Origin: Octopus vulgaris
Lineage: Eukaryota
Length of the DNA stretch: 64,000 bases
Assembly: GCA_951406725.2 (NCBI GenBank)
Contig: OX597828.1
Coordinates: 14,012,001-14,076,000, forward strand
Direction of reading: 5' to 3'
Notes under the pieces: generated by a model
What the model was told of the DNA's origin: nothing
Databases searched by the model: none
What the model saw: the letters and a program-made list of their open reading frames with translations, nothing else
Part shown: one piece after another, positions 1,366 through 54,150 of the stretch
How positions within the stretch are numbered: the first letter of the stretch is position 1
Layout: each line of letters opens with the position of its first letter
Translations under genes and position numbers: made by a program

Positions 1366-2310
1366 TTACAGACAATGGATGAGAGCTGGGTACAGAAAAC
1401 ACATAGTATGGGAAACACATGTTTGAAATGTGCAAAAAGTCCAAGCTTCTTGAAACAGCTGGTGAGTTAAGAAATTACATATTTTCTTATTTTATTCTGT
1501 AAGTTTATTCCTTTACGCAGAAGAGTAGCAGTCCATAAAAAACAGATAAATCTTCCACAATATTGTAAAATTCCACTCAGTGGCCACATAGACTCTTGCG
1601 CTAGAAATAACAATCTCAAATTTCTTATATTCCCTTTCTATCGATGTAAAGACAGAACCTCTACACATGAAAGAATCAAGAAGGAGAATCTTTTTATTGA
1701 AAAATTCCAGACGCTTCTTAAAATGCAAACTCCATGGTGACCGTATTCCTTTTCCTAGCCTTATATTAAATATATATACATGTATTTAATAATATATATT
1801 AAATACATATATATTTGTTACTTGTATTTCTAAGAACAGACAGAAGCATCCTGTTGAAAAAAAATTCAACATTCCAATTAAAGAGTATAAAACCCACAGA
1901 ATTGTCTCCCCTTATCCACAGGGACTGCAAAACTCCTACCCCACTTCCTGTTTGACACATAAACATCCAACCTTCTCGAACAAAAAACTACACTTAAACA
2001 CATGCATCCTAATCCTTCAAACAAGTTTTTCCATGGAATACTATTGAACTTTAAAAGCTTAAAGACAGAATGATGTATTGGTATGTTTATTTATTTTTGT
2101 ATATATTCATTATAATTGTTTTGAAAAAGCATTATTTTTCCCCCCTTTCTTATCTTGAAAATTTGCCATGCAATGAAAGTCGGTTTGAAATCCTTTTTAA
2201 TCTTGCTTACACTTTATTTATATTAAAATTTCCTTTCAGTTTAGCATTCTGCCTTCTTCTTATTATTTTTTCCTTTCCTTACATACGTATGTATATATGT
2301 GTGTGTACAC

Positions 2311-2369
<59 letters not shown>

Positions 2370-2444
2370 TTGAGTTGTGGGGTATCGCACGAGTGGGATT
2401 ATATATGAAAAAAGGTTTGAAAATGCAATTTAAACGATGTTTAT

Positions 2445-2490
2445 TTACTTAACCGGTTTCACTCTTTGTTAAAAAGATTGTCAAAAGTAA
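2445..2490 (-). ncRNA. Minimal type I hammerhead ribozyme motif, U3-A8 core variant
   Basis: Minus strand: TTACTT-TTGACAA-TCTTTTTAACAAAGAGT-GAAA-CCGG-TT-AAGTAA; 6-bp stem I, palindromic CCGG stem III loop, AATAAA overlapping the 3' end. Confidence 0.6.
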
Positions 2491-3243
2491 CATTGAATAT
2501 TATGGGTTCAAAAAAAGTTTTTTACATAATTGTCACATTGAATATTATGAATTCAAAAATGTTTTTTTATACATAATTGTCACATTACATGTATAAATAT
2601 AGTATAAAAAAGTTCAATAGTGTGATGAGAATATTTGGAAAAATTGGCAGAAAAGAATAAAACAAATATATTATTGGAAATTTGGTTGCGTTAATTATTG
2701 GTTGTCGCAAATTGTCACATTACATGTATATATATACAGTCTTTGGTAGAAATGACATGTTAAAGACATAAGGAAGTGTAATAGTTTGGTGAGAAAGCTT
2801 GTAATATTGACAGAGAAAATTAAAATGGATATTTTAGACATCTCAGAATATTTTGAATCGAAGGCGAGAATTTGTTTTTTACTGACCTGTTTGTTTTAGC
2901 AGAAAAGTTGAATTGAGAGAAAAAAAAGATATGTACCCAATTTGGTTTATACTTCCCCTTCAAGCATCAGTGACTTTGGGGTTATTGGGAGGTGAGTATG
3001 CGGGTGTGAATAGATGTGTCCGTGTGCCTGCTGGTCAGACAGCGTCTGTTTGTCACACACATATATACACACACACACACAACAACAATACACACACACA
3101 CATAGTATACACACACACACCACATACACACAACACACACACACACAGAACACACACACACACAACGCACCCACATATATAATATATACACACAGCACAC
3201 AAATATAACATGTATTTATATATAATATACACACATATATAAA

Positions 3244-3293
<50 letters not shown>

Positions 3294-4090
3294 CACACGC
3301 ACACATATATACATAATATAAATATCACACAAATACACCTAGCATATATATACACATACAATACACATACACAGCATGTATATAATACACATACACAATA
3401 TATGCATGCAATATACATACGCAATACATACATATAATATATATATATATAGACAATGCATATACATATATACATATATACATATAAATAGTGTTTACAT
3501 ACACATACATAGATATACCACATATACACACAATATACATACATACAATGCATACACATACACGTACGCATACATATAAAATATATAGACACACACACAC
3601 ATAACATACATACACAATGCATACATATATATACACGCAACGTATATATACATGTATTCATGTATATATAGCACACTTACAATATACATATATACAATGC
3701 ACACATACACACATATATACACTTAATTGTACACATACATATACAATACACATACATACAATATACATATACACAATGCGCATGCAAATAATGCACATGT
3801 TTATACACCCATATACATGAAAATATATATACACACACACACATACACACACACATATATATATATACACATATATATATATATATACACATATACATAC
3901 ATACATACATGCACATACATATATTTTTTCACACACATACACACACATATATATATAAAATTCACACACACACCCACACACACAAAATACAAACCTATAG
4001 TGTACACACTCAAATATATCTCTACATACCGCACACACACGCAAACAATGTACTCACATATACACACATACCATGCATATACACACACAG

Positions 4091-4122
<32 letters not shown>

Positions 4123-4545
4123 AACAAATACACATGTAAATACATACACTCGTACACAATGCTCACACACACACACATACACACACACACGCACACAGTG
4201 CACACACACACACATATATACACACGTGCACACACACACACACAACGCGCGCACACACACACACATACACACACGCACACAGTGCACACACACACACACA
4301 CATAAACACACGCGCACACACACACACACACAACGTGCACACTCACACACACACACACAACACTCACACACATACATAACCTACATATATATAATGCATG
4401 CGTGTGCGTGCCACGTATGTGTGCGGTCAATGCCCGCTAGTGTGTCCTATGCGTGCCGATGCGCGCATGTGCCCACCCGCACGATATGCTGTGAGTGTGC
4501 GCGTGCCCCTGTGTGCCTGCTCTGGATGTGTGCCCAGGGGGTATG

Positions 4546-4905
4546 TTAGAGTATGTTTAGTTGTGGTCTGTATTTTTGAATAAGATTACTTTCCTTATTT
4601 ATTCGTGTTTGGTCTGTGGTGTTGTCCGAGCATTGGTATAGTGGGAAGACTAAGAATTTGGGGGACTTATTGTGTGCACAAAGGTCTAAGTGTCCACTTA
4701 GTGGTATCTGTCTTGTGGAGGGGTCCCTCAGTTGTTGTCGGTGAACTGTCATTCTTTCTCTGAGGGTAAGGCTCGTTTGCCCTATGTAGTCTTCGTGGCA
4801 TCCTTCACACCTTATGACGTAGAGTAAATTTTTTGATGCGCACGTGAAATTATTTTTTATGATGAATGTGTGTCCCGAGTGGAACTTGTACGACGATCCC
4901 TCGTG
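4546..4905 (-). pseudogene. Penelope-type GIY-YIG endonuclease domain (C-terminal fragment)
   Basis: FTCASKNLLYVIRCEGCHEDYIGQTSLTLRERMTVHRQ...HL...RINKESNLIQKYRPQLN; the first ~40 aa of the listed ORF come from the inverted pLTR. Confidence 0.88.
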
Positions 4906-5467
4906 ACAAACAGACGCTGTCTGACCAGCAGGCACACGGACACATCTATTCACACCCGCATACTCACCTCCCAATAACCCCAAAGTCACTGATGCTTGAA
5001 GGGGAAGTATAAACCAAATTGGGTACATATCTTTTTTTCTCTCAATTCAACTTTTCTGCTAAAACAAACAGGTCAGTAAAAAACAAATTCTCGCCTTCGA
5101 TTCAAAATATTCTGAGATGTCTAAAATATCCATTTTAATTTTCTCTGTCAATATTACAAGCTTTCTCACCAAACTATTACACTTCCTTATGTCTTTAACA
5201 TGTCATTTCTACCAAAGACTGTATATATATACATGTAATGTGACAATTTGCGACAACCAATAATTAACGCAACCAAATTTCCAATAATATATTTGTTTTA
5301 TTCTTTTCTGCCAATTTTTCCAAATATTCTCATCACACTATTGAACTTTTTTATACTATATTTATACATGTAATGTGACAATTATGTATAAAAAAACATT
5401 TTTGAATTCATAATATTCAATGTGACAATTATGTAAAAAACTTTTTTTGAACCCATAATATTCAATG

Positions 5468-5513
5468 TTACTTTTGACAATCTTTTTAACAAAGAGTGAA
5501 ACCGGTTAAGTAA
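5468..5513 (+). ncRNA. Minimal type I hammerhead motif (inverted copy of 2445-2490)
   Basis: Same sequence as the 2445-2490 motif, in the inverted arm. Confidence 0.6.
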
Positions 5514-5547
5514 ATAAACATCGTTTAAATTGCATTTTCAAACCTTT

Positions 5548-5599
<52 letters not shown>

Positions 5600-5649
5600 A
5601 TATAGATATGTATATATATGTATATATTTGTGTGTGAGTGTGTACATTT

Positions 5650-5721
<72 letters not shown>

Positions 5722-6092
5722 TGTATAGACATCAAAAAAATAAATCCACAGTAATTTAGTGTTCAATTAGTAACAAGTTGTTAAACTCCAACATATTATT
5801 ACATTGCAATAAATCCAACAAGAACCGACTTGTGTGTAAATACATAATTTACGAAAACAATCAGAAAAACAAAAATTTGACATACAGTTTATAATTGTGT
5901 CCAACAGCTGTTTCACTGAGAGAGATGTCATTAAATGTATAATCATATAATTTTGACACATAATTTATCATTTTAAATTGAATTCAAGGATTGTGCTCAC
6001 ACAAATCACCGAGAATAGTGTGTGTTATGTTAATTATAAAACTGTTACTAGTTTAAGTACATAGACAGGGAATATATACAAGGATATATTTA

Positions 6093-18505: not shown

Positions 18506-19767
18506 CGAGGGACGTTCAATAAGTAATGCCTCTGACCCACTTGCAGTTGTTTGATCTCTATAGATTAAGTGGCAAATTACAGCTCTGAGCTAATTGTGGT
18601 TTCTGATTTACAGGTGTTTGAACTGAGTCAAGTGTGAAATGGAGCCTGTTGAGTGTCGAGCAGTGATCCGGTTTTTGTATTTGAAAGGACGCACACCACA
18701 GGAGACTTTTGATGAAATGAAAGTAACTTATGGTGATGATACCCCATCATATGACCTTGTAAAACGCTGGCATCGTGAATTCAAACATGGTCAGAACTCT
18801 GTGGAAACAGCTCCCAGATCTGGTCACCCCCTTCTGCCATTGATGAGGCATCTGTCCGTCAAGTTGAGGCTGCCATTTTGGAAGATCGATGCATAACTAT
18901 TCGCCAAATAGCCCATGAGGTCAAGATTAGTACCGGGTCTGTGGAAACTATCATTCATGACCATTTGCATAAGCAAAAGGTGTCTGCCAGATGGATTCCC
19001 AGGTTGCTCACACCTTTCCAGAAGCAAGAACGCGTTGAGTGCTCGAGGATGAATTTGGAGATGTGCCAAGAAGATGAGTCAAAATTTTTCAAAAGACTGA
19101 TTACACAGGATGAAACCTGGGTCCATCACTATGATTCAGAGACCAAAGCCCAGTCAATGCAGTGGAAGCACCGTGACTCACCTCCTCCAAAGAAGGCAAG
19201 GGTGCAGCCCTCCGCTGGCAAGGTCATGCTCACAGTCTTCTGGGACCAGGACGGAGTAGTGATGACAGATTTCCTGGCAAAGGGTACCACAATTACAGGA
19301 GCCTATTATGCTTCACTTTTGAGGAAATTAAGAGAAGCTATCAAAATCAAGAGGTGGGGCAAGATCAGCAAAGGCATCCTCCTCCTGCAGGACAACGCTC
19401 CGGTCCACAACTCGCGTGTCGCCAGATCAGAAGCACAGGCGTGCTGCTATGAACTCCTCCCCCATCCCCCCTACGCTCCTGACCTTGCACCCTCTGATTT
19501 TCACCTCTTCCCAGCCATGAAGTTGTTTTTGAAAGGAAAGCATTTCACAGATGATGCAGCCTTGAATTTCTAAAGTCACGTCCTGGTTGGAGGACCAAGC
19601 TGGGGTCTTCTACTACAAAAACGGTCTCCAGCGCTGCATCAAACGATGGGAGAAATGCGTAACTCTGGGTGGTTCCTATGTAGAAAAAGACTAATAACTG
19701 TGCCAAGTTTCGTTGCTCTACTGCTATGGGAAATGGGTCAGGGGTATTACTTATTGAACGCCCCTCG
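18506..19767 (+). mobile_element. Near-full-length mariner DNA transposon (1262 bp)
   Basis: TIRs CGAGGGACGTTCAATAAGTAATGCC / GGTATTACTTATTGAACGCCCCTCG with TA TSDs at 18504-05 and 19768-69. Confidence 0.95.
18639..19694 (+). pseudogene. Mariner DD34D transposase, two frameshifts (about 18830 and 19565)
   Basis: HTH N-terminus (ECRAVIRFLYLKG), WIPRLL, TQDETW, QDNAPVH, HPPYAPDLAPSDFHLF, RWEKCVTLGGSYVEK*. Confidence 0.92.
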
Positions 19768-30403: not shown

Positions 30404-30458
<55 letters not shown>

Positions 30459-30723
30459 TCAATATAGGGTGGCAAAAAAATTTTGTACAATTCTTTTGCC
30501 TCCAGCGGCCTAGTGGGAAAAAATTAAATAGTCATAAACCATTTTTACGTTCAACATCACAATCAAGGAACGGCCATAATAGGCCATTCACCCACTAGAA
30601 ATAACAGCCAAAAGCTTTAACCGCAAAATAACATTAATACCGTAAACCAGGAGAAAATTGAAAAACTTTTACCCTGTAATTTCTTAGACGATGCACCGTT
30701 TAACCGCAAAATAACATTAATAC

Positions 30724-30822
30724 CTTACTGATGAGTCTAAGGGCCTATGGTGGATTGGCTTGATTTAATTTAATCAGGTTAGTTTACCATTAAACGGTAG
30801 ATGAAACGGTGCATCGTCTAAG
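30724..30822 (+). ncRNA. Type I hammerhead ribozyme (stem I shortened to 4 bp by the junction)
   Basis: CTTA-CTGATGA-GTCTA...TAGAT-GAAA-CGGTGCATC-GTC-TAAG. Confidence 0.75.
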
Positions 30823-31210
30823 AAATTACAGGGTAAAAGTTTTTCAATTTTCTCCTGGTTTACGGTATTAATGTTATTTTGCGGTTAAAGCTTTTGGCTG
30901 TTATTTCTAGTGGGTGAATGGCCTATTATGGCCGTTCCTTGATTGTGATGTTGAACGTAAAAATGGTTTATGACTATTTAATTTTTTCCCACTAGGCCGC
31001 TGGAGGCAAAAGAATTGTACAAAATTTTTTTTGCCACCCTATATTGATTAATTATGAATTTTCTGGTTAGTTCCGTAATGGAATCGGTGGCTTATATTTA
31101 TTTGCTGCCGATAAATTTGGCGCGAGTGCGACGATTTGAAAATTTTAGGTCAGATATTGCCGAGGTAGCAAGAGGAATGCCTCGTGAAAAATATCTGTTC
31201 CGACTTGGCT

Positions 31211-31317
31211 ATTTCTTACTGATGAGTCTAAGGGCCTATGGTGGATTGGCTTGATTTAATTTAATCAGGTTAGTTTACCATTAAACGGTAGATGAAACGG
31301 TGCATCGTCTAAGAAAT
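31211..31317 (+). ncRNA. Type I hammerhead ribozyme, canonical core, extended stem II
   Basis: Stem I ATTTCTTA/TAAGAAAT (8 bp); CTGATGA; stem II GTCTA/TAGAT enclosing a 19-bp G-U-rich hairpin; GAAA; stem III ACGG-TGCA-TCGT; GUC site ending at 31309. Confidence 0.88.
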
Positions 31318-31435
31318 TACAGGGTAAAAGTTTTTCAATTTTCTCCTGGTTTACGGTATTAATGTTATTTTGCGGTTAAAGCTTTTGGCTGTTATTTCTA
31401 GTGGGTGAATGGCCTATTATGGCCGTTCCTTGATT

Positions 31436-31588
<153 letters not shown>

Positions 31589-34311: not shown

Positions 34312-35303
34312 GACATATATATATATGTAGGTATATATGTTTGCATGGACATACATTTACGTATGTATCTATTCATCTATTTATCCGTATATGCGTGTGT
34401 ATAGATATGTGTATCTATCTATCTATCTATTAATCTATATGTGTGTGTGTGTGTGTGTGTACACACATATAGAGATATACATGTAATTATGTATACACAC
34501 ACACATGCACACACACACACATGCACACACACACACACACACACACAGTGTGTGGGTGAGAGATTTTGTTCAGTCTGCAATTAAACTAAACGGTATATAA
34601 AGTCTCCGGTTAATATAAAGGACGCCATACAATGGACCTTGTAGAGTATTGAAAGATATTTGTTACAATTATACCAAACGTAGCAGAACGGTTGTTTTGT
34701 TTCGATGAACGTTATGCTCTTTTACCAGAGAACACGGACGGTTTCTAAGCAATGAGAGTAAATAGCAGAGATATAAATCAGCATAGAACCAGATTCGATA
34801 CAGTCAAATCAAACATTATTTCATTTGGCTGTATCGAAGCTTGTTCAAAGCTAGTGACGTATGCTGCTGTTGTAGTTTTTTTATTATCTGCTCTCAGATA
34901 CTAACCTTATTCACTCTTGAATATCCGTTGTTGAAAACGGTTGTTGATACAATAGTGATAACACAGACACACACATACTAGAATCATCTGGCGAGACGGA
35001 CGAGACCAATGCGCCTACGGAAGTTTAAGTCGTATGGAGCTGAATTAAACTTATTAAAGATATATGTAACTCTTACCAAATTTGTTGAGTGCTATATATA
35101 TATATATTTATATAATAGAAATATGTTACAAAAAGAAAATAGAAGCTACACGTGGAAATGTAAGGGGAAAGTAAGAAGAAAAATAAGCGAAAATGCACAT
35201 TGGAAATCAAAAGTAGTAAAGGCTTTTTTATAAAAAGTAACGATAGATATATACAATTGGAGGAACTGAGGTAGGAATAAAAGTAATAAAAGTGATTAAG
35301 AGA

Positions 35304-35350
35304 TTCAAAAGCATACCGGTTTCGTGAATTTTCTAATCATTGCTTTGAAT
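35304..35350 (-). ncRNA. Minimal hammerhead motif, A3-U8 core variant
   Basis: Minus strand: ATTCAAAGCA-ATGATTA-GAAAATTCAC-GAAA-CCGG-TA-TGCTTTTGAAT; extended stem I, palindromic CCGG. Confidence 0.5.
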
Positions 35351-35355
35351 GCACA

Positions 35356-35431
<76 letters not shown>

Positions 35432-41080: not shown

Positions 41081-42514
41081 CGGTCAATACAATAAATATA
41101 AAAAGGGTAATACATAAATGTGCCAGAGGGGAAAGAGAGACACACAACCGAGTAGAATGTTTAAGAAAAGATTTATGGATATGTTAACATGTGTGTCTGT
41201 GTCTGCATCATGTATACAGAATAATAGACAGGCCGTCATGAGAACAAAGTGTATGTTGTATTGGCATGGATGTATGCGTGTGCGTTACGTACATGAGAAG
41301 TTAGACGAATGTCCATAGTCACAAGAATGAGAAATACCAGTTCAGTAATTGAAATACTGTATCAAGAGGTTGCGGCCATGATGCTGAGCCGGTTGTAGTA
41401 CATGTCATACGTGAAGTTGTTGCTGTAATGCTGCTGCTTGGGTCACTTGGTACAGGAGTTCTCACAGGTTGTATATTTGCTGTTGATCCATGGTGAAGTA
41501 ATTCTCGAACAGTGCAGTATTGAGACCTGTGCGAGCTGCTTGTTGAGCTGTGTACGTAGAGATGATGTTGACTACGTTAAGAAGATGAAGGTGGCGACGA
41601 AGACGGAGGTTGCCGTAATGCTGTTGGACGAGTGTCGTCGTCTGACGTTGTCGCTGGAACTGGCTGTGTTTTGAAACCAAAGACCTCGAGACGAAAAGGA
41701 ACTGGGTTTTTATAAGAAGCTATAGGTTCAAAACTGCGTTGAGAACGTGATTTATTTAGGGGCACCGATTAGTTATACGCAGCGAATTGGCGCGACAGAG
41801 TAAGAGACAAATTGCGCCAATACCAACCAATCAGAGTAATGGACGCAACGGGGTCCAAATAGCGGTCAAAGGCTAGCTGCACATATATATATAATAAAAG
41901 GGAAAGAGGACTTTCACTCGAGTGTTCGCTAGACAATAATGCAAAGCAAACAAATAATCTTATCTTCAGCAGACAAAAAACAATATTGCAGTCCCCAATC
42001 CTCATTAAAACCTGTTTTCTTCCTTCAGCGTTTTCTTGGTCTTCTTTCACACGATGGACTTTGAAGCTGACAAAATAAGAATATTAAAATATATATATAT
42101 ATACACGAGTACAGTCAGGCTGTGAAACTACTCTCAAATTCCACTTCAAATGGAAAGTCGCGTGCACCGTTGTCACAAGTTCATAATCATTAGCGTACTT
42201 GATCGCCACAGGCTCTCATTAACCAGTATCGGGAGCCAGTCAGGTGAGAAAGTTAACGTACATTCTAGAGTTAGATTAGAACTAAATCATGAGTGTAGCA
42301 GATGTCGAAATGGCCCTTGCGGCCTACAATTTTTTTAATAGTGGTGGTCAGTTGGAAAGGATTATTTCATTGAATTTTCATTTACTCTTTGGTATTTTAA
42401 ATATGTTCATTTTAAGATTGGAATAAAAATGATAAAGGACGAACCATGAATAAAAATAAGATTTGTTCTGCAAGATTTGGATTCATTCAAAAGGCCACAC
42501 GTAATGGCCTAGAA

Positions 42515-43216
42515 GGCCGTCGGTTCCCCACTCCAGCCATAAACCCATCTTTCATCGTCAGAGATGACGGTTTTCATGAAGTCTGGGTCGTGGTTAACAC
42601 AGTCTAGCATGTCCTGAGCGATTTCCATTTGGAATTGCTTCTGCAGCTTCGCCAACACCTTGGGGACGAATTTCGCTGACACCCTTCGCATGCACAAATC
42701 TTCCGTTAAAATGGAATGCACCGATCCTGTGCTTATTCCCTCTTTGTGAGCAATTTCCTGGATTGTTACACATTGGTCTTCCATGACTATTCGCCAAACC
42801 TTCTCAATTGGCTCCTCGTTGTGAATGGCCTGCGTCAGCGTGTCTTGCTCTCCACTGAGGTGCGGCCGTGTCTGAAACGGTTCTACCACTCATTGATTTG
42901 AATTTTGCCCATTGCATCATCGCCAAAGGCCTGGTGAATATTCTGTATGGTCTGAGCTTGAGTATCACCAAGCTTTAGGCAAGACGATACAATATCTCTG
43001 CTCAAATGCGTTCGTAGAAACGAAAATCCGACGAACGCGCACTACACGTCCGTTCTCTAGGTGTAACAATCCAGATCTGGGACGACTTACCAGCGTGAAA
43101 TTTTTCATGCCTGCGCAGGAAAGGTGGCTTCATCTCCCACCCAAAGGATTTTGCCCACACAGCATTAGTTTTGGCGGTAAAAAATTAAAATCGGTTACTT
43201 TTTTAATGCACTTTGT
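42515..43216 (-). mobile_element. 3'-truncated mariner (third family)
   Basis: VTIQEIAHKEGISTGSVHSILTEDLCMRRVSAKFVPKVL...VISDDERWVYG; degenerate TIR near 43190-43216. Confidence 0.8.
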
Positions 43217-49533: not shown

Positions 49534-50292
49534 TTATTCAGTTTTTATTTGTGTATGCGGTAAATCAAGAGGGAGCTGTTCCCCAGAGACTGTTGTCAAA
49601 CTGACTGGAGAAAGAGTGGTGTTTGATTGAGTGTTTACGTTAGGACAGCTGTTGGACATTAGAGAATCAACTTCAACCTCAATCACAACTGACGTGCTGT
49701 AGTCTGGTTGATTGTGACTAATCATACCCGTTATCATTTGTGACAAATTACAGATGGTCTTCTGATATTGAAGTCCCGTTAAGGTCATTTTGTTGTCAAC
49801 ATGTTCGTAGTTCAGGAAAGAATCTGATTTGTTTAAGTTATTCTGAGACTCTGCTATGGTATTTTGCGAAGAACAGGAAATCGGGTCTGTTTCTTGTTTT
49901 ACCTTTATTCCTGATTGGCTAGGTCCTCCATCACAGTCGTTGTCCATCTGAAATCTGTTTGTTATTTGGTAGTTGAAATATATATTCATCTGTTCTTCAT
50001 TCGAAGATTTCAAAGATGTATTGGATTGGTTTTGCATTGTACATTGTTTATATCGATCCACAAGGCTCAAGATATTGTATACACCAAGGATCTTAGCAAT
50101 GCACTCCATGTTGTATAGAATATCTGAATTTAAAACCAGGACTCCTTCATACATATAGGTACAAAAGGCCCAGAGAGCTTCCTCTTGAATGTCAGGAGTA
50201 AAAGTTAACTGTAGGTATTCACCTTTCAGCACATCAGTATTTGGAATTTCCAGAAGTTTGGTACAAGTGGCAATGAGAAGATCTCGATGAAC
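49534..50292 (-). CDS. BTB/POZ-domain protein, last visible exon (BTB second part, low-complexity tail, stop)
   Basis: Acceptor tctctttcag at 50293; VHRDLLIATC..LL...ALWAFCTYMYEGVLVL...IAKILGV..ILSLV is a BTB signature; phase 0; 253 codons to TAA. Confidence 0.88.
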   Translation of the reverse strand, partial: VHRDLLIATCTKLLEIPNTDVLKGEYLQLTFTPDIQEEALWAFCTYMYEGVLVLNSDILYNMECIAKILGVYNILSLVDRYKQCTMQNQSNTSLKSSNEEQMNIYFNYQITNRFQMDNDCDGGPSQSGIKVKQETDPISCSSQNTIAESQNNLNKSDSFLNYEHVDNKMTLTGLQYQKTICNLSQMITGMISHNQPDYSTSVVIEVEVDSLMSNSCPNVNTQSNTTLSPVSLTTVSGEQLPLDLPHTQIKTE

Positions 50293-50439
50293 CTGAAAGA
50301 GATATTATATGAGATATTAATTACTTTCAAAGAAAATAATGATTTTTAAAAATCTTTTTTCATGCAGACATAAAGCCACAACTCTGTACAAGACAAACCA
50401 AAACAAGAATCCTCTACATCAATGATTCTTAACCTTTTT

Positions 50440-51641: not shown

Positions 51642-53570
51642 TAATTACTATTATAGGTAAAATTCAATATGTTAATTATGTTACCTCACTGTCCCCTAAA
51701 GCCTAAACCCCACCCTTCACATGCTCAGTACTCCTTTTCACATACCCAGCACCCCCTTTCACATGCCCAGTTCCCCCTTTCTCAAGCCCAGCACCCCCTC
51801 GAAGGGAATGTCTTCCATGTTGAGAAACTCTGCTCTACATAGTCACTCAGTTTGCTAGATACATCAACTAAATTTACTCAAATCATTTTGAAAAGAAAGG
51901 ATTCATTGGATAGTAAAGGTAATGGGTAAAGACCCCTTTCGGTCATGAATGACCATGGGATTGCACCTAGAAAGTTCCCCTCTGAGGCACAAGTCTGAGC
52001 AAGGTTGTATATGGAAGACCAGCAGTTACCCATGCATACTAGTCTCCCTTCTCCTTGTCACAGATATTATCCAATGGAAAGGCAAAGGGGCCAATACAGC
52101 TTGGTACCAGTGACATCGCAACTCATTTCTACAGTTGAGTGAACTGGAGCAATGTAGCATAAAGTGTCTTGCTCAAGAACACAACACACAACCCGGTCCA
52201 AGAATAAAACTCACTACCTCATGATTGCATGGAGGCACATGGCCTAGTGGTTAGTGCAGCAGACTCGCGGTCGAGGGATTGCAGGTTCGAATCTCAGACC
52301 GGGCGATGTGTGTGTTTATGAGCAAAACACCTAAGCCCCAGGCAGCTCCGGCAGAAAGCAATGGCAAACTTCTGCTGACTCTTTCACCACAACTTTCTCT
52401 CACTTTTTCTTCCTGCATCTTGCAACTCACCTGCGATGGACCAGCGTCCCATCCAGGTGGGGAACCTATACACCAAGGAAACCGGGAAACCGGCCCTTAT
52501 GAGCCAGGCATGGCTCGAGAAGGAACAAACAAACAAAAATGATTGTGACCCCAACACTCTAACCACTGAGCCATTGGATAACATGGTGCTAAATATACAA
52601 AAACAAAGAAAGAGTGGGTATGCTCTTGATCATAAGTCTACTCACCCAAGGGTGACTGGGTTTAAACTATGACAACTTTGAGAATGCAAACCAACAGAGC
52701 AACGTCTGAGTATTCATAGGCTGTGGTAAGAAGTTTACTTCCCAATCACATGGTTTGGGGTTCAGTACCACTGCATGGCACCCTGAGCAGGTGTCTTCTA
52801 CTAAAGTTTTGTGACTGGATTTGTTTGATGAAAAGTGAAAGTGTGTCTGTGAGTGTGTGTGTGTTATATTTTTCCTTGCCCCAGCTTCACAAATGAGTGT
52901 CACCATCATGACTGCTTTCCTTCACATCCAGTCATCCATGAAAAATATGTTTAGCCATGCTTGGAAACCGGTTGAAAGTTGGTGATAGGAAAGACATCCA
53001 GCCACAGAAAATTCACATCAACAGATTCTAACTGACCCGTGCAAGCATGGAAGAATGGTCATTAAAAAGTGATAAAAAAAAAAGATCTGTTCTGCTCAGG
53101 GTTGCCTTGGCCTAAACAAAAACAACTCTTGTATTATGTAGTCTGTAGCTCTTCAATAAATAAAAACTGTTTTTGTTGTTGTTGTTGTTGGTCAGTCCAT
53201 AACTAAAAACATTCCGTCTGTTACTGCCTTATCTTTTTACTGGGCACAGAGAACTCAAGACAATGTTTCTTTTTGAGTCTTTTCTCTCTATGACGATAGG
53301 GTGAGAATTAAGGGAGATTTCACAGCTATTTCTAGAAAGTCGAATGACTATGGAGAGGTCCTCATTATTTCATGAAACATATTGTTTATTTGAGAAGGCA
53401 GGGTGTGTCATCTGAAAGGTATCTCACCACTATTTCTATTCAGCAAAATAAATGTATATGTATACAGGTATGCACACACACACACACGTGTGTGTGAGGA
53501 TATATATATATATATATGGAAAAAGAAAAGTCAGGTAGAAAATGCTAAAATAATTTTATAAAAAACATTT

Positions 53571-53606
53571 CAGTACTGGTTTCTGTCATTTAGACTTTTT
53601 CAACTG
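53571..53606 (-). ncRNA. Minimal hammerhead-like motif, U3-A8 variant, in a TA-flanked 210-bp element
   Basis: Minus strand: CAG-TTGAAAA-AGTCTAAATGACA-GAAA-CCAG-TA-CTG; (TA)n at about 53500 and 53735. Confidence 0.45.
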
Positions 53607-54150
53607 TAAGTATGGAAAACAATTAAATTTTGGAAGAATTAAAAGAAAATTTTGTTTTTAAAGAATATTTTACAAGAATATGTTCAAATACAAGTGGAAT
53701 TTCCCTTGTTTACTCTTGTGAGTTCGAGGTTATATATATATATATATAACATATTGTTCGTGTGCTGCTAGATTCAGAAGATTAAATGTGTTACAGGAAC
53801 ATGACAGGAAAAAAAACACACAATGAACATGAATATGCTCGACCCCTTATCATCTATTGGCCAAATATCACCACAATTTGTCACCACAGCAGTATCAGTA
53901 CCATAAGCTACTGCTGTATAACTGAGCAGACATGATAAACGACTGCAAATAACAAGAAATGATAAGGTCTCTAGACCAAACAGTAATTAACGATGAGTTA
54001 TGAGGAAAATGAAGAAAAATACATACAACGGAAGAAACAAATAGATAAGCAAGGACAATGACAGAGAAAAGATAATAAATGATAGAGAAAGATATCTATA
54101 TCACTCTATTTGGCTCATAAATAAGAATTAAAAACTAATTGATAACTTAC

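What the first reader, a model, noticed from the sequence alone, without database searches (positions are those of the whole stretch)
35304..35350. Hammerhead core variants covary the 3-8 tertiary pair, including a rare A3-U8
Seen: cores CUGAUGA (C3-G8; 31219), UUGACAA and UUGAAAA (U3-A8; 5474 and 53597-53603) and AUGAUUA (A3-U8; 35334-35340), each with an intact stem I and GAAA-CC(G/A)G-UH. Known: positions 3 and 8 form a Watson-Crick tertiary pair and U3-A8 occurs in Penelope-associated hammerheads. Inference: three pairings in one window indicate selection on catalysis. The A3-U8 case is a single copy with a weak stem II, so it is the least secure.
Basis: partly seen in the sequence, partly recalled or inferred. 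Interest (0 to 1): 0.7.

Follow-up and report, generated by a model that had tools for sequence, protein, structure and literature searches.

The report
Penelope hammerheads swapping their core pair
A family of jumping genes in this animal genome carries a small, predicted self-cutting RNA in which two paired core letters are A-U instead of the usual C-G, and related families use G-C or U-A, which suggests the pairing is kept by selection, although cutting itself is untested.

Summary
The A3-U8 core at 35340-35334 (minus strand) is real and is no one-off. [quoted passage not shown] A3-U8 is the family state: 73 of the first 100 of 124 pattern matches; 22 are G3-C8 and 5 are mismatched. The weak stem II is partly a private change of this copy. 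The A-U and G-C subfamilies differ at 10 of 1,160 columns, two being positions 3 and 8. Trees built without the core put the A-U copies inside G-C lineages, and a second A-U family arose separately (AU test p=0.0025). Stem I covaries too. All four Watson-Crick pairs occur in this genome. Inserted copies decay neutrally, so selection likely acted on master elements, not on this copy. Likely mechanism: a slow, dimer- or protein-assisted minimal type I hammerhead; cleavage is untested. Natural U3-A8 is published. I found no natural A3-U8 in the papers searched, but key papers were not held. The scan noted A3-U8 before in other genomes and G3-C8 in this one. Verdict: new variant of a known kind.

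The parts
35093..35360 (-). 5'-truncated 3' end (pseudo-LTR region) of a Penelope-like element, flanked by (TA)n; family A
   Evidence: 2,071 first-look candidates, 40 scored, best copies 87-90% identical; extent; longer copies carry RT, Cys linker and GIY-YIG-like frames upstream
35303..35350 (-). minimal type I hammerhead motif (the finding)
35341..35350 (-). stem I, 5' strand
35334..35340 (-). core strand A3-U4-G5-A6-U7-U8-A9 (A3=35340, U8=35335)
   Evidence: family state
35324..35333 (-). stem II (G10.1-C11.1 closing pair; private U-to-A change at 35332)
35314..35323 (-). G12-A13-A14-A15.1, palindromic CCGG, U16.1-A17; predicted cut between 35314 and 35313
   Evidence: homodimer cofold -20.9 vs 2 x monomer -10.4 kcal/mol; cut site from hammerhead numbering (established knowledge)
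35303..35313 (-). stem I, 3' strand
5466..5516 (+). U3-A8 hammerhead motif of family B (very young PLE), inverted partial copy
2442..2492 (-). second family-B U3-A8 motif, in the main copy of the same insertion (about 2280-4902 minus)
4546..4902 (-). GIY-YIG endonuclease end of the family-B element
   Evidence: PF01541, E 2.7e-5, above cut-off, on 4546-5046; inversion point at 4903
53568..53611 (-). U3-A8 hammerhead motif of family C (decayed copy)
31211..31310 (+). C3-G8 hammerhead motif with long stem II region and longer stem III; second copy with its core at 30728

Best explanation
The stretch is the 3' end of a truncated Penelope-like retroelement whose family carries a minimal type I hammerhead motif with A3-U8 in place of C3-G8; the family motif likely cuts its own RNA slowly, as a dimer or with the element's protein, and this inserted copy is likely inactive debris. 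Shown: motif, family membership, 3-8 and stem I covariation, linkage to RT and GIY-YIG-like frames. Inferred: PLE transcripts from tandem or inverted copies bring two motifs together through the palindromic ACCGGU, which supplies stem III; the 3-8 Watson-Crick pair holds nucleotide 8 in the active-state geometry, so any of the four pairs will do (recalled: the 2'-OH of residue 8, not its base, is the acid); cleavage falls after U16.1-A17. Master elements with a broken 3-8 pair did not found lasting subfamilies, so each switch was fixed as a compensated pair; in family A the order was likely G-C first, A-U later.
For: Family counts: 63 A-U, 9 G-C, 6 other of 78; 73 A-U, 22 G-C, 5 other in the first 100 of 124, counted by eye (reversed-pattern control 0). 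Subfamilies differ at 10 of 1,160 columns, two being 3 and 8; the other eight lie 313 nt or more upstream. Tree of 21 of 64 copies without columns 3, 7, 8: all 12 A3 copies form one clade (bootstrap 78) among G-C copies. Tree of upstream coding DNA: family D (A-U, 96) is sister to family F (U-A, 100) plus the family A group (95), with G-C lineages at the base of the A group; one clade for all 24 A3 rows is rejected, p-AU 0.0025, and 3 state changes are needed on 43 rows. Genome-wide: A3-U8 376 matches (control 82) against A3 with any other base at 8, 237 (control 576). In 14 hand-picked representatives the 3-8 pair is A-U 7, G-C 5, U-A 2, never unpaired; all 4 stem I pairs change on both sides; U4, G5, A6, A9, G10.1, C11.1, GAAA, CCGG, U16.1 are invariant (the rows were chosen through patterns that fix most of these letters). 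Literature: natural U3-A8 (PMC3088659 section 8; PMC4209133); in a PLE hammerhead C3G or G8C alone abolish cleavage and the double mutant partly restores it (PMC11167929, passages); PLE minimal hammerheads cleave weakly as dimers (PMC4209133).
Against: No cleavage data. The predicted minimum-energy folds of monomers and dimers do not show the full hammerhead for the window copy; stem II is mispaired there. The number of independent switches is only 3 on the tree, and the G-C to A-U order rests on weak nodes (50, 78 with a midpoint root). Only 2 of 30 copies picked by downstream sequence begin at the predicted cut (offsets +25, +26), while 14 begin 0-35 nt upstream of the core or at its first bases: most copies were made from uncut RNA. 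In the one PLE tested in vitro, hammerhead mutants did not impair insertion and no RNA-seq reads ended at the cut site (PMC11167929). Family A lacks the extra nucleotide between 9 and 10.1 that most published PLE motifs have (PMC4209133 Fig. S3). Copies in the genome show no extra conservation of the core.
Confidence: 0.7

Rival explanations
1. The fold is kept for a non-cutting job, such as a binding or pausing site for the PLE protein; the 3-8 pair is selected for shape, and cleavage is negligible in the cell.
For: 5' ends of copies pile up just upstream of the motif, not at the cut (14 of 30 vs 2 of 30). Hammerhead mutants did not affect in vitro insertion in an anole PLE (PMC11167929). Cervera and de la Pena leave 'functions other than self-cleavage' open. 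A 16,562-match family in this genome has U at the normally fixed position 6.
Against: The 3-8 pair is described as forming in the active conformation and not in the ground-state crystals (PMC3884650, passage); position 17 is A, C or U in the motifs listed, but the search patterns fixed this.
Confidence: 0.2
2. The paired changes are chance: two substitutions carried along in a master element, with no selection on pairing.
For: Each switch is one event however many copies inherit it; only 3 are counted. G-to-A and C-to-U are both transitions in an AT-rich genome. G3-U8 and A3-C8 copies exist (6 of 64).
Against: Other diagnostic columns are 8 of about 1,158 (0.7%) and none lies within 300 nt of the core, so a partner change at exactly position 8 is unlikely by chance; all three switches land on Watson-Crick pairs; stem I covaries as well. 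The one large mismatched set seen (C3/U8, 9 of the first 100 rows) is the antisense strand of a LINE-like RT frame with no hammerhead stems (3 loci examined).
Confidence: 0.05
3. Family A got its A-U core in one step by a short conversion or template switch from family D, which has the same eight letters; the two A-U families would then share one origin of the core.
For: Both families contain AUGAUUAG. The clade test used upstream coding DNA, not the core.
Against: The flanks on both sides of the eight letters differ between A and D, leaving no homology to drive an exchange; stem I and II of family A stay those of its G-C relatives.
Confidence: 0.05

Closest known systems
Minimal type I hammerheads in pseudo-LTRs of metazoan Penelope-like elements (Cervera and de la Pena 2014, PMC4209133; read: main text parts 1-2 of 4, supplement PDF parts 1-2 of 3)
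   Same: Position in the 3' repeat of 5'-truncated PLEs, short stem I, G10.1-C11.1, palindromic stem III region, dispersed solo and inverted copies, U3-A8 as a known variant
   Different: A3-U8 and G3-C8 cores: of the 56 rows of their Fig. S3, 53 are C3-G8, 2 U3-A8, 1 U3-G8, none A3-U8 or G3-C8 (their descriptors fixed the core). Family A also lacks the extra nucleotide after A9 and has a stem II of only 2-4 bp
Natural hammerhead core variants (Perreault et al. 2011, PMC3088659; read: section 8 and passages)
   Same: Covariation of positions 3 and 8; U10.1-U11.1 closing of stem II as in family B; weak stems II and III
   Different: Only U3-A8 is named as natural there; here A-U and G-C also occur, with a traceable switch inside one family
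Anole Poseidon PLE hammerhead (PMC11167929; read: passages)
   Same: PLE-borne hammerhead in which the 3-8 pair is rescued by a compensatory G3-C8 double mutant; protein-assisted
   Different: G3-C8 was engineered there; the motif overlaps the start codon; A3-U8 not mentioned in the passages seen
Small PLE-associated hammerheads that cleave as dimers (Lunse, Weinberg and Breaker 2017; paper not held, title seen in reference lists only)
   Same: Short stem III and dimer mode, by title and recall
   Different: Unknown: it may already list A3-U8; could not be checked
Metazoan non-LTR retrozymes (PMC7761336 passages; bioRxiv 10.64898/2026.07.22.740005 part 1 of 5)
   Same: Type I hammerhead, PLE connection
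   Different: Family A is the end of a coding element and is dispersed, not a tandem non-coding repeat

Membership tests
Hammerhead ribozyme, type I | Core U4 G5 A6 A9 / G12 A13 A14 A15.1 / U16.1 H17 | tested here: met
   the 29 loci were found by overall similarity, not by a core pattern
Hammerhead ribozyme, type I | Watson-Crick pair between positions 3 and 8 | tested here: met
   95 of the first 100 of 124 matches
Hammerhead ribozyme, type I | C3-G8 identity of the consensus | tested here: not met
   A3-U8; identity is known to vary in nature (U3-A8, PMC3088659)
Hammerhead ribozyme, type I | Stem I with covariation | tested here: met
   4 of 4 pairs change on both sides, 95.9% of cells paired
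Hammerhead ribozyme, type I | Stable stem II | tested here: inconclusive
   G10.1-C11.1 invariant, second pair U-A/C-G; only 2-4 bp, broken at the second pair in the window copy
Hammerhead ribozyme, type I | Match to an Rfam hammerhead model | tested here: not met
   none among 150 of 151 matches listed at E<=1; the C3-G8 motif at 31219 was not listed either
Hammerhead ribozyme, type I | Site-specific self-cleavage | not testable with these tools
   needs a bench assay; 2 of 30 copies begin at the predicted site, not significant
PLE minimal hammerhead | Palindromic 15.2-16.2/loop 3 allowing a dimer | tested here: met
   ACCGGU; homodimer cofold pairs it in the window copy and 3 of 5 other copies folded
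PLE minimal hammerhead | Extra nucleotide between 9 and 10.1 | tested here: not met
   absent in family A; also absent in 2 of the 56 published rows
Penelope-like element (EN+) | RT followed by C-terminal GIY-YIG endonuclease upstream of the repeat | tested here: met
   frames in longer copies; Pfam GIY-YIG E 0.0075, below cut-off, in 1 of 6 family-A fragments; family-B EN above cut-off and about 45-50% identical over family-A EN remnants; ESM Atlas top hit 0.95, HTH_animal clusters, one set with RVT_1 19%; no RT hit in Pfam, NCBIfam or PDB
Penelope-like element (EN+) | 5' truncation, inverted partial copies, insertion in microsatellites | tested here: met
Neptune clade of PLEs | CX2-5CxxC linker and phylogenetic placement | tested here: inconclusive
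   CxxxxCxxC linker seen in translations, matching the passage in PMC8557442, which says Nematis has a linker too; no tree with reference elements was built
Non-LTR retrozyme | Non-coding tandem units, each with a hammerhead | tested here: not met
   family A is attached to a coding frame and dispersed

The most novel reading that the evidence does not exclude
Penelope-like elements of one genome have moved through all four Watson-Crick pairs at the active-state 3-8 position, with A3-U8 arising at least twice; these are working natural hammerheads, and the elements need the ribozyme to reach its catalytic conformation in order to spread, which would settle that PLE minimal hammerheads are functional parts rather than passengers.
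Probability: 0.4. Interest if true: 0.68.

Novelty: new variant of a known kind. Interest (0 to 1): 0.5.

Why it matters
Whether the weak, minimal hammerheads of Penelope-like elements do anything in the cell is an open question in the papers read (PMC4209133, PMC7761336, PMC8557442, PMC11167929). Repeated compensated change at a pair tied to the active conformation is evolutionary evidence that they do, and family A gives a natural G-C/A-U pair of near-identical ribozymes for a direct mutant-cycle test. It also shows that descriptors fixing CUGANGA miss real families. The surprise is moderate: the exchange is predicted by the structure, U3-A8 is published, and engineered G3-C8 rescue is known.

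Tried and rejected
Rfam scan: only microsatellite noise. Expression: no RNA holder listed; contigs of three runs of unstated kind, under three organism labels, cover the motif and a guessed-RNA run covers parts of the repeat, but the tables gave no letters for positions 3 and 8, so nothing is drawn from them. Copies starting at the cut site: 2 of 30, not significant. Selection on inserted copies: none seen. CpG decay as cause of the G-C/A-U change: neither position is in a CpG (sequence). A DNA hairpin joining 3 and 8: the flanking 2.1 and 9 letters are both A, so none. An alternative register with a 6-nt core was rejected because the 7-nt register aligns with the G-C and U-A relatives. Family E (old, copies about 70% alike, A3 and U8 the majority letters by eye in 26 of 28 loci) may be a third A-U origin, but its only endonuclease link (L227) sat on a long unstable branch and was left out. 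The protein tree did not resolve the inside of the A group. The adjacent U-A/A-U inverted pair L139/L140 is one insertion and was not counted. RT fragments gave no useful hit in Pfam, NCBIfam or PDB. Papers not held: Lunse 2017, Przybilski and Hammann 2007, Hammann 2012, Arkhipova 2017, Martick and Scott 2006, Nelson and Uhlenbeck 2008, Lee and York 2008.

Full report
1. Observation. The window is G000:C15:14012001-14076000 in a 2.8-Gb animal genome. On the minus strand, 35350-35303 reads as a type I hammerhead: a 10-11 nt stem I with one bulge, core AUGAUUA (A3=35340, U8=35335), a 10-nt stem II, GAAA, CCGG, UA. A descriptor finds 4 sites in the window and none in 200 shuffles.

2. The element. 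35093-35360 is the 3' end of a dispersed repeat (2,071 candidates, 40 scored). Longer copies extend upstream into decayed frames with DKG and YLDD motifs (labels recalled), a CxxxxCxxC linker and a GIY-YIG-like end, with the motif about 120-200 nt after the stop, in sense. Profile support is modest: Pfam GIY-YIG below cut-off in 1 of 6 fragments, above cut-off for the related family-B frame, ESM Atlas neighbours with HTH_animal and RVT_1. Copies are 5'-truncated, sit in (TA)n and sometimes have inverted partial copies, as described for PLEs (PMC8557442, passages). I file it as an EN+ Penelope-like element, Neptune-like by the linker only.

3. Is A3-U8 the family state? Yes. Among the 29 closest loci (30 rows) 26 are A-U, 2 G-U, 1 G-C, 1 A-C (biased to the window's subfamily). 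With positions 3 and 8 left open, 63 of 78 exact matches are A-U and 9 G-C; with a looser pattern, 73 A-U, 22 G-C and 5 mismatched in the first 100 of 124 (by eye; 24 not listed). The window copy differs from the majority at 9 of 240 columns, one of them the second base of stem II.

4. Is the covariation more than descent? The A-U and G-C (N7=U) groups differ at 10 of 1,160 columns; eight lie 313 nt or more upstream in the coding part and two are 3 and 8 (the groups were defined by these two, so the independent test is the tree). A tree without the core columns, on the 21 of 64 copies long enough, puts all 12 A3 copies in one clade (78), and the upstream diagnostic sites track the core state. 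G-C copies are more diverged from each other (90.1%) than A-U copies (92.9%), and further G-C families with other stem II sequences branch earlier, so the order G-C then A-U is likely but rests on weak nodes.

5. Other families. A pattern for any 3/8 state gives 12,634 matches (control 997); the first 100 are 77 U-A, 8 C-G, 2 A-U, 1 G-C and 12 other, 9 of which belong to one repeat whose 3 loci examined are the antisense of a LINE-like RT. A3-U8 gives 376 (control 82); A3 with another base at 8 gives 237 (control 576), a mixed set of single mutants and chance. A second A-U family (D, stem II GCGAAAGC, endonuclease about 52-64% identical to family A in most copies) is separated from family A by a U-A family and by G-C lineages; one origin is rejected at p-AU 0.0025, with 3 changes of state on 43 rows after leaving out L227. 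In 14 representatives the 3-8 pair and all four stem I pairs change on both sides; slid controls fall to 16-38% paired against 95.8%. The tool warns that relatedness inflates such scores, and the rows were my choice.

6. What speaks against function. Inserted copies lose core letters as fast as flanks. Fourteen of 30 copies chosen by downstream sequence start within 35 nt upstream of the core or at its first bases, 10 run 395 nt or more upstream, and only 2 start at the predicted cut. Predicted folds give stem I and the intermolecular ACCGGU helix but not the family stem II in the window copy. In an anole PLE, cleavage needed the protein and was dispensable for insertion in vitro (PMC11167929, passages).

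7. Mechanism. Shown: sequence, family, covariation. Inferred: two motifs pair through the palindrome, or the protein assists folding; the isosteric 3-8 pair supports the active conformation (PMC3884650, passage); cleavage after U16.1-A17 processes multimeric PLE RNA. My odds: covariation reflects selection 0.9; family-state RNA cleaves measurably in vitro 0.65; this genomic copy acts in the cell under 0.1.

8. Novelty. Natural U3-A8 is published (PMC3088659 section 8; PMC4209133). Searches for A3-U8/A3U8 and related terms returned no paper with a natural A3-U8, and none of the 56 rows of Fig. S3 of PMC4209133 has it. Colon notation could not be searched, figures are not held, and seven relevant papers with their supplements were not available, above all Lunse 2017, so absence from print is not established. 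Passages of PMC6765202, PMC7761336, PMC6155905, PMC10085705 and PMC6257768 added nothing on this point. Earlier notes of this scan report A3-U8 in a probable frog PLE and in a phage, and G3-C8 in a satellite of this genome; I did not test those loci. What this locus adds is the within-family switch and two origins. Verdict: new variant of a known kind, interest 0.5.

Noticed in passing
window 7984 and 33430 (C3, minus strand); L240-L249: Hammerhead-like motif with C3-G8 but U at position 6 (CUGUNGA plus an extra A, 4-bp stem II, CG loop III). 16,562 exact pattern matches in G000, control 0; about 96 of the first 100 have U6, 2 have A6, N7 takes all four bases, while flanks differ by 15-30%. 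One locus has a PLE-like RT remnant upstream. Not found in paper search; the scan noted a like family in another genome (e1-9559914).
   Followed up: partly
window 2280-5730: Very young PLE insertion (family B) with an inverted partial copy; 34 of 40 scored genome hits are 100% identical over 146 nt, many in inverted pairs 2-11 kb apart; it has a 2-kb conserved, CA-rich 3' region and a U3-A8 motif with U10.1-U11.1. Likely recently active.
   Followed up: partly
window 30450-31440: Two C3-G8 hammerhead motifs 491 nt apart with a long AT-rich hairpin in stem II, inside a partly inverted repeat structure; family not searched.
   Followed up: partly
L139/L140 (G000:C1:7828096-7828240): An inverted pair of family-F motifs about 120 nt apart, one U3-A8 and the other A3-U8, stem I also differing. 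Single case, cause unknown.
   Followed up: no
L250-L279: 5' ends of family-A copies cluster just upstream of stem I (14 of 30 between -35 and +1), suggesting a reverse-transcription stop or repeat boundary at the motif.
   Followed up: partly
G000:C1:20002278-20004183: Six C3-G8 motifs about 359 nt apart (retrozyme-like array); motifs with a similar stem II and U3-A8 occur elsewhere on C1.
   Followed up: no
window 18779-19573 (+), 42509-42889 (-), 49534-50304 (-): Two mariner-like transposase remnants and a probable host exon resembling a BTB-domain protein (labels recalled from the translations, not searched).
   Followed up: no
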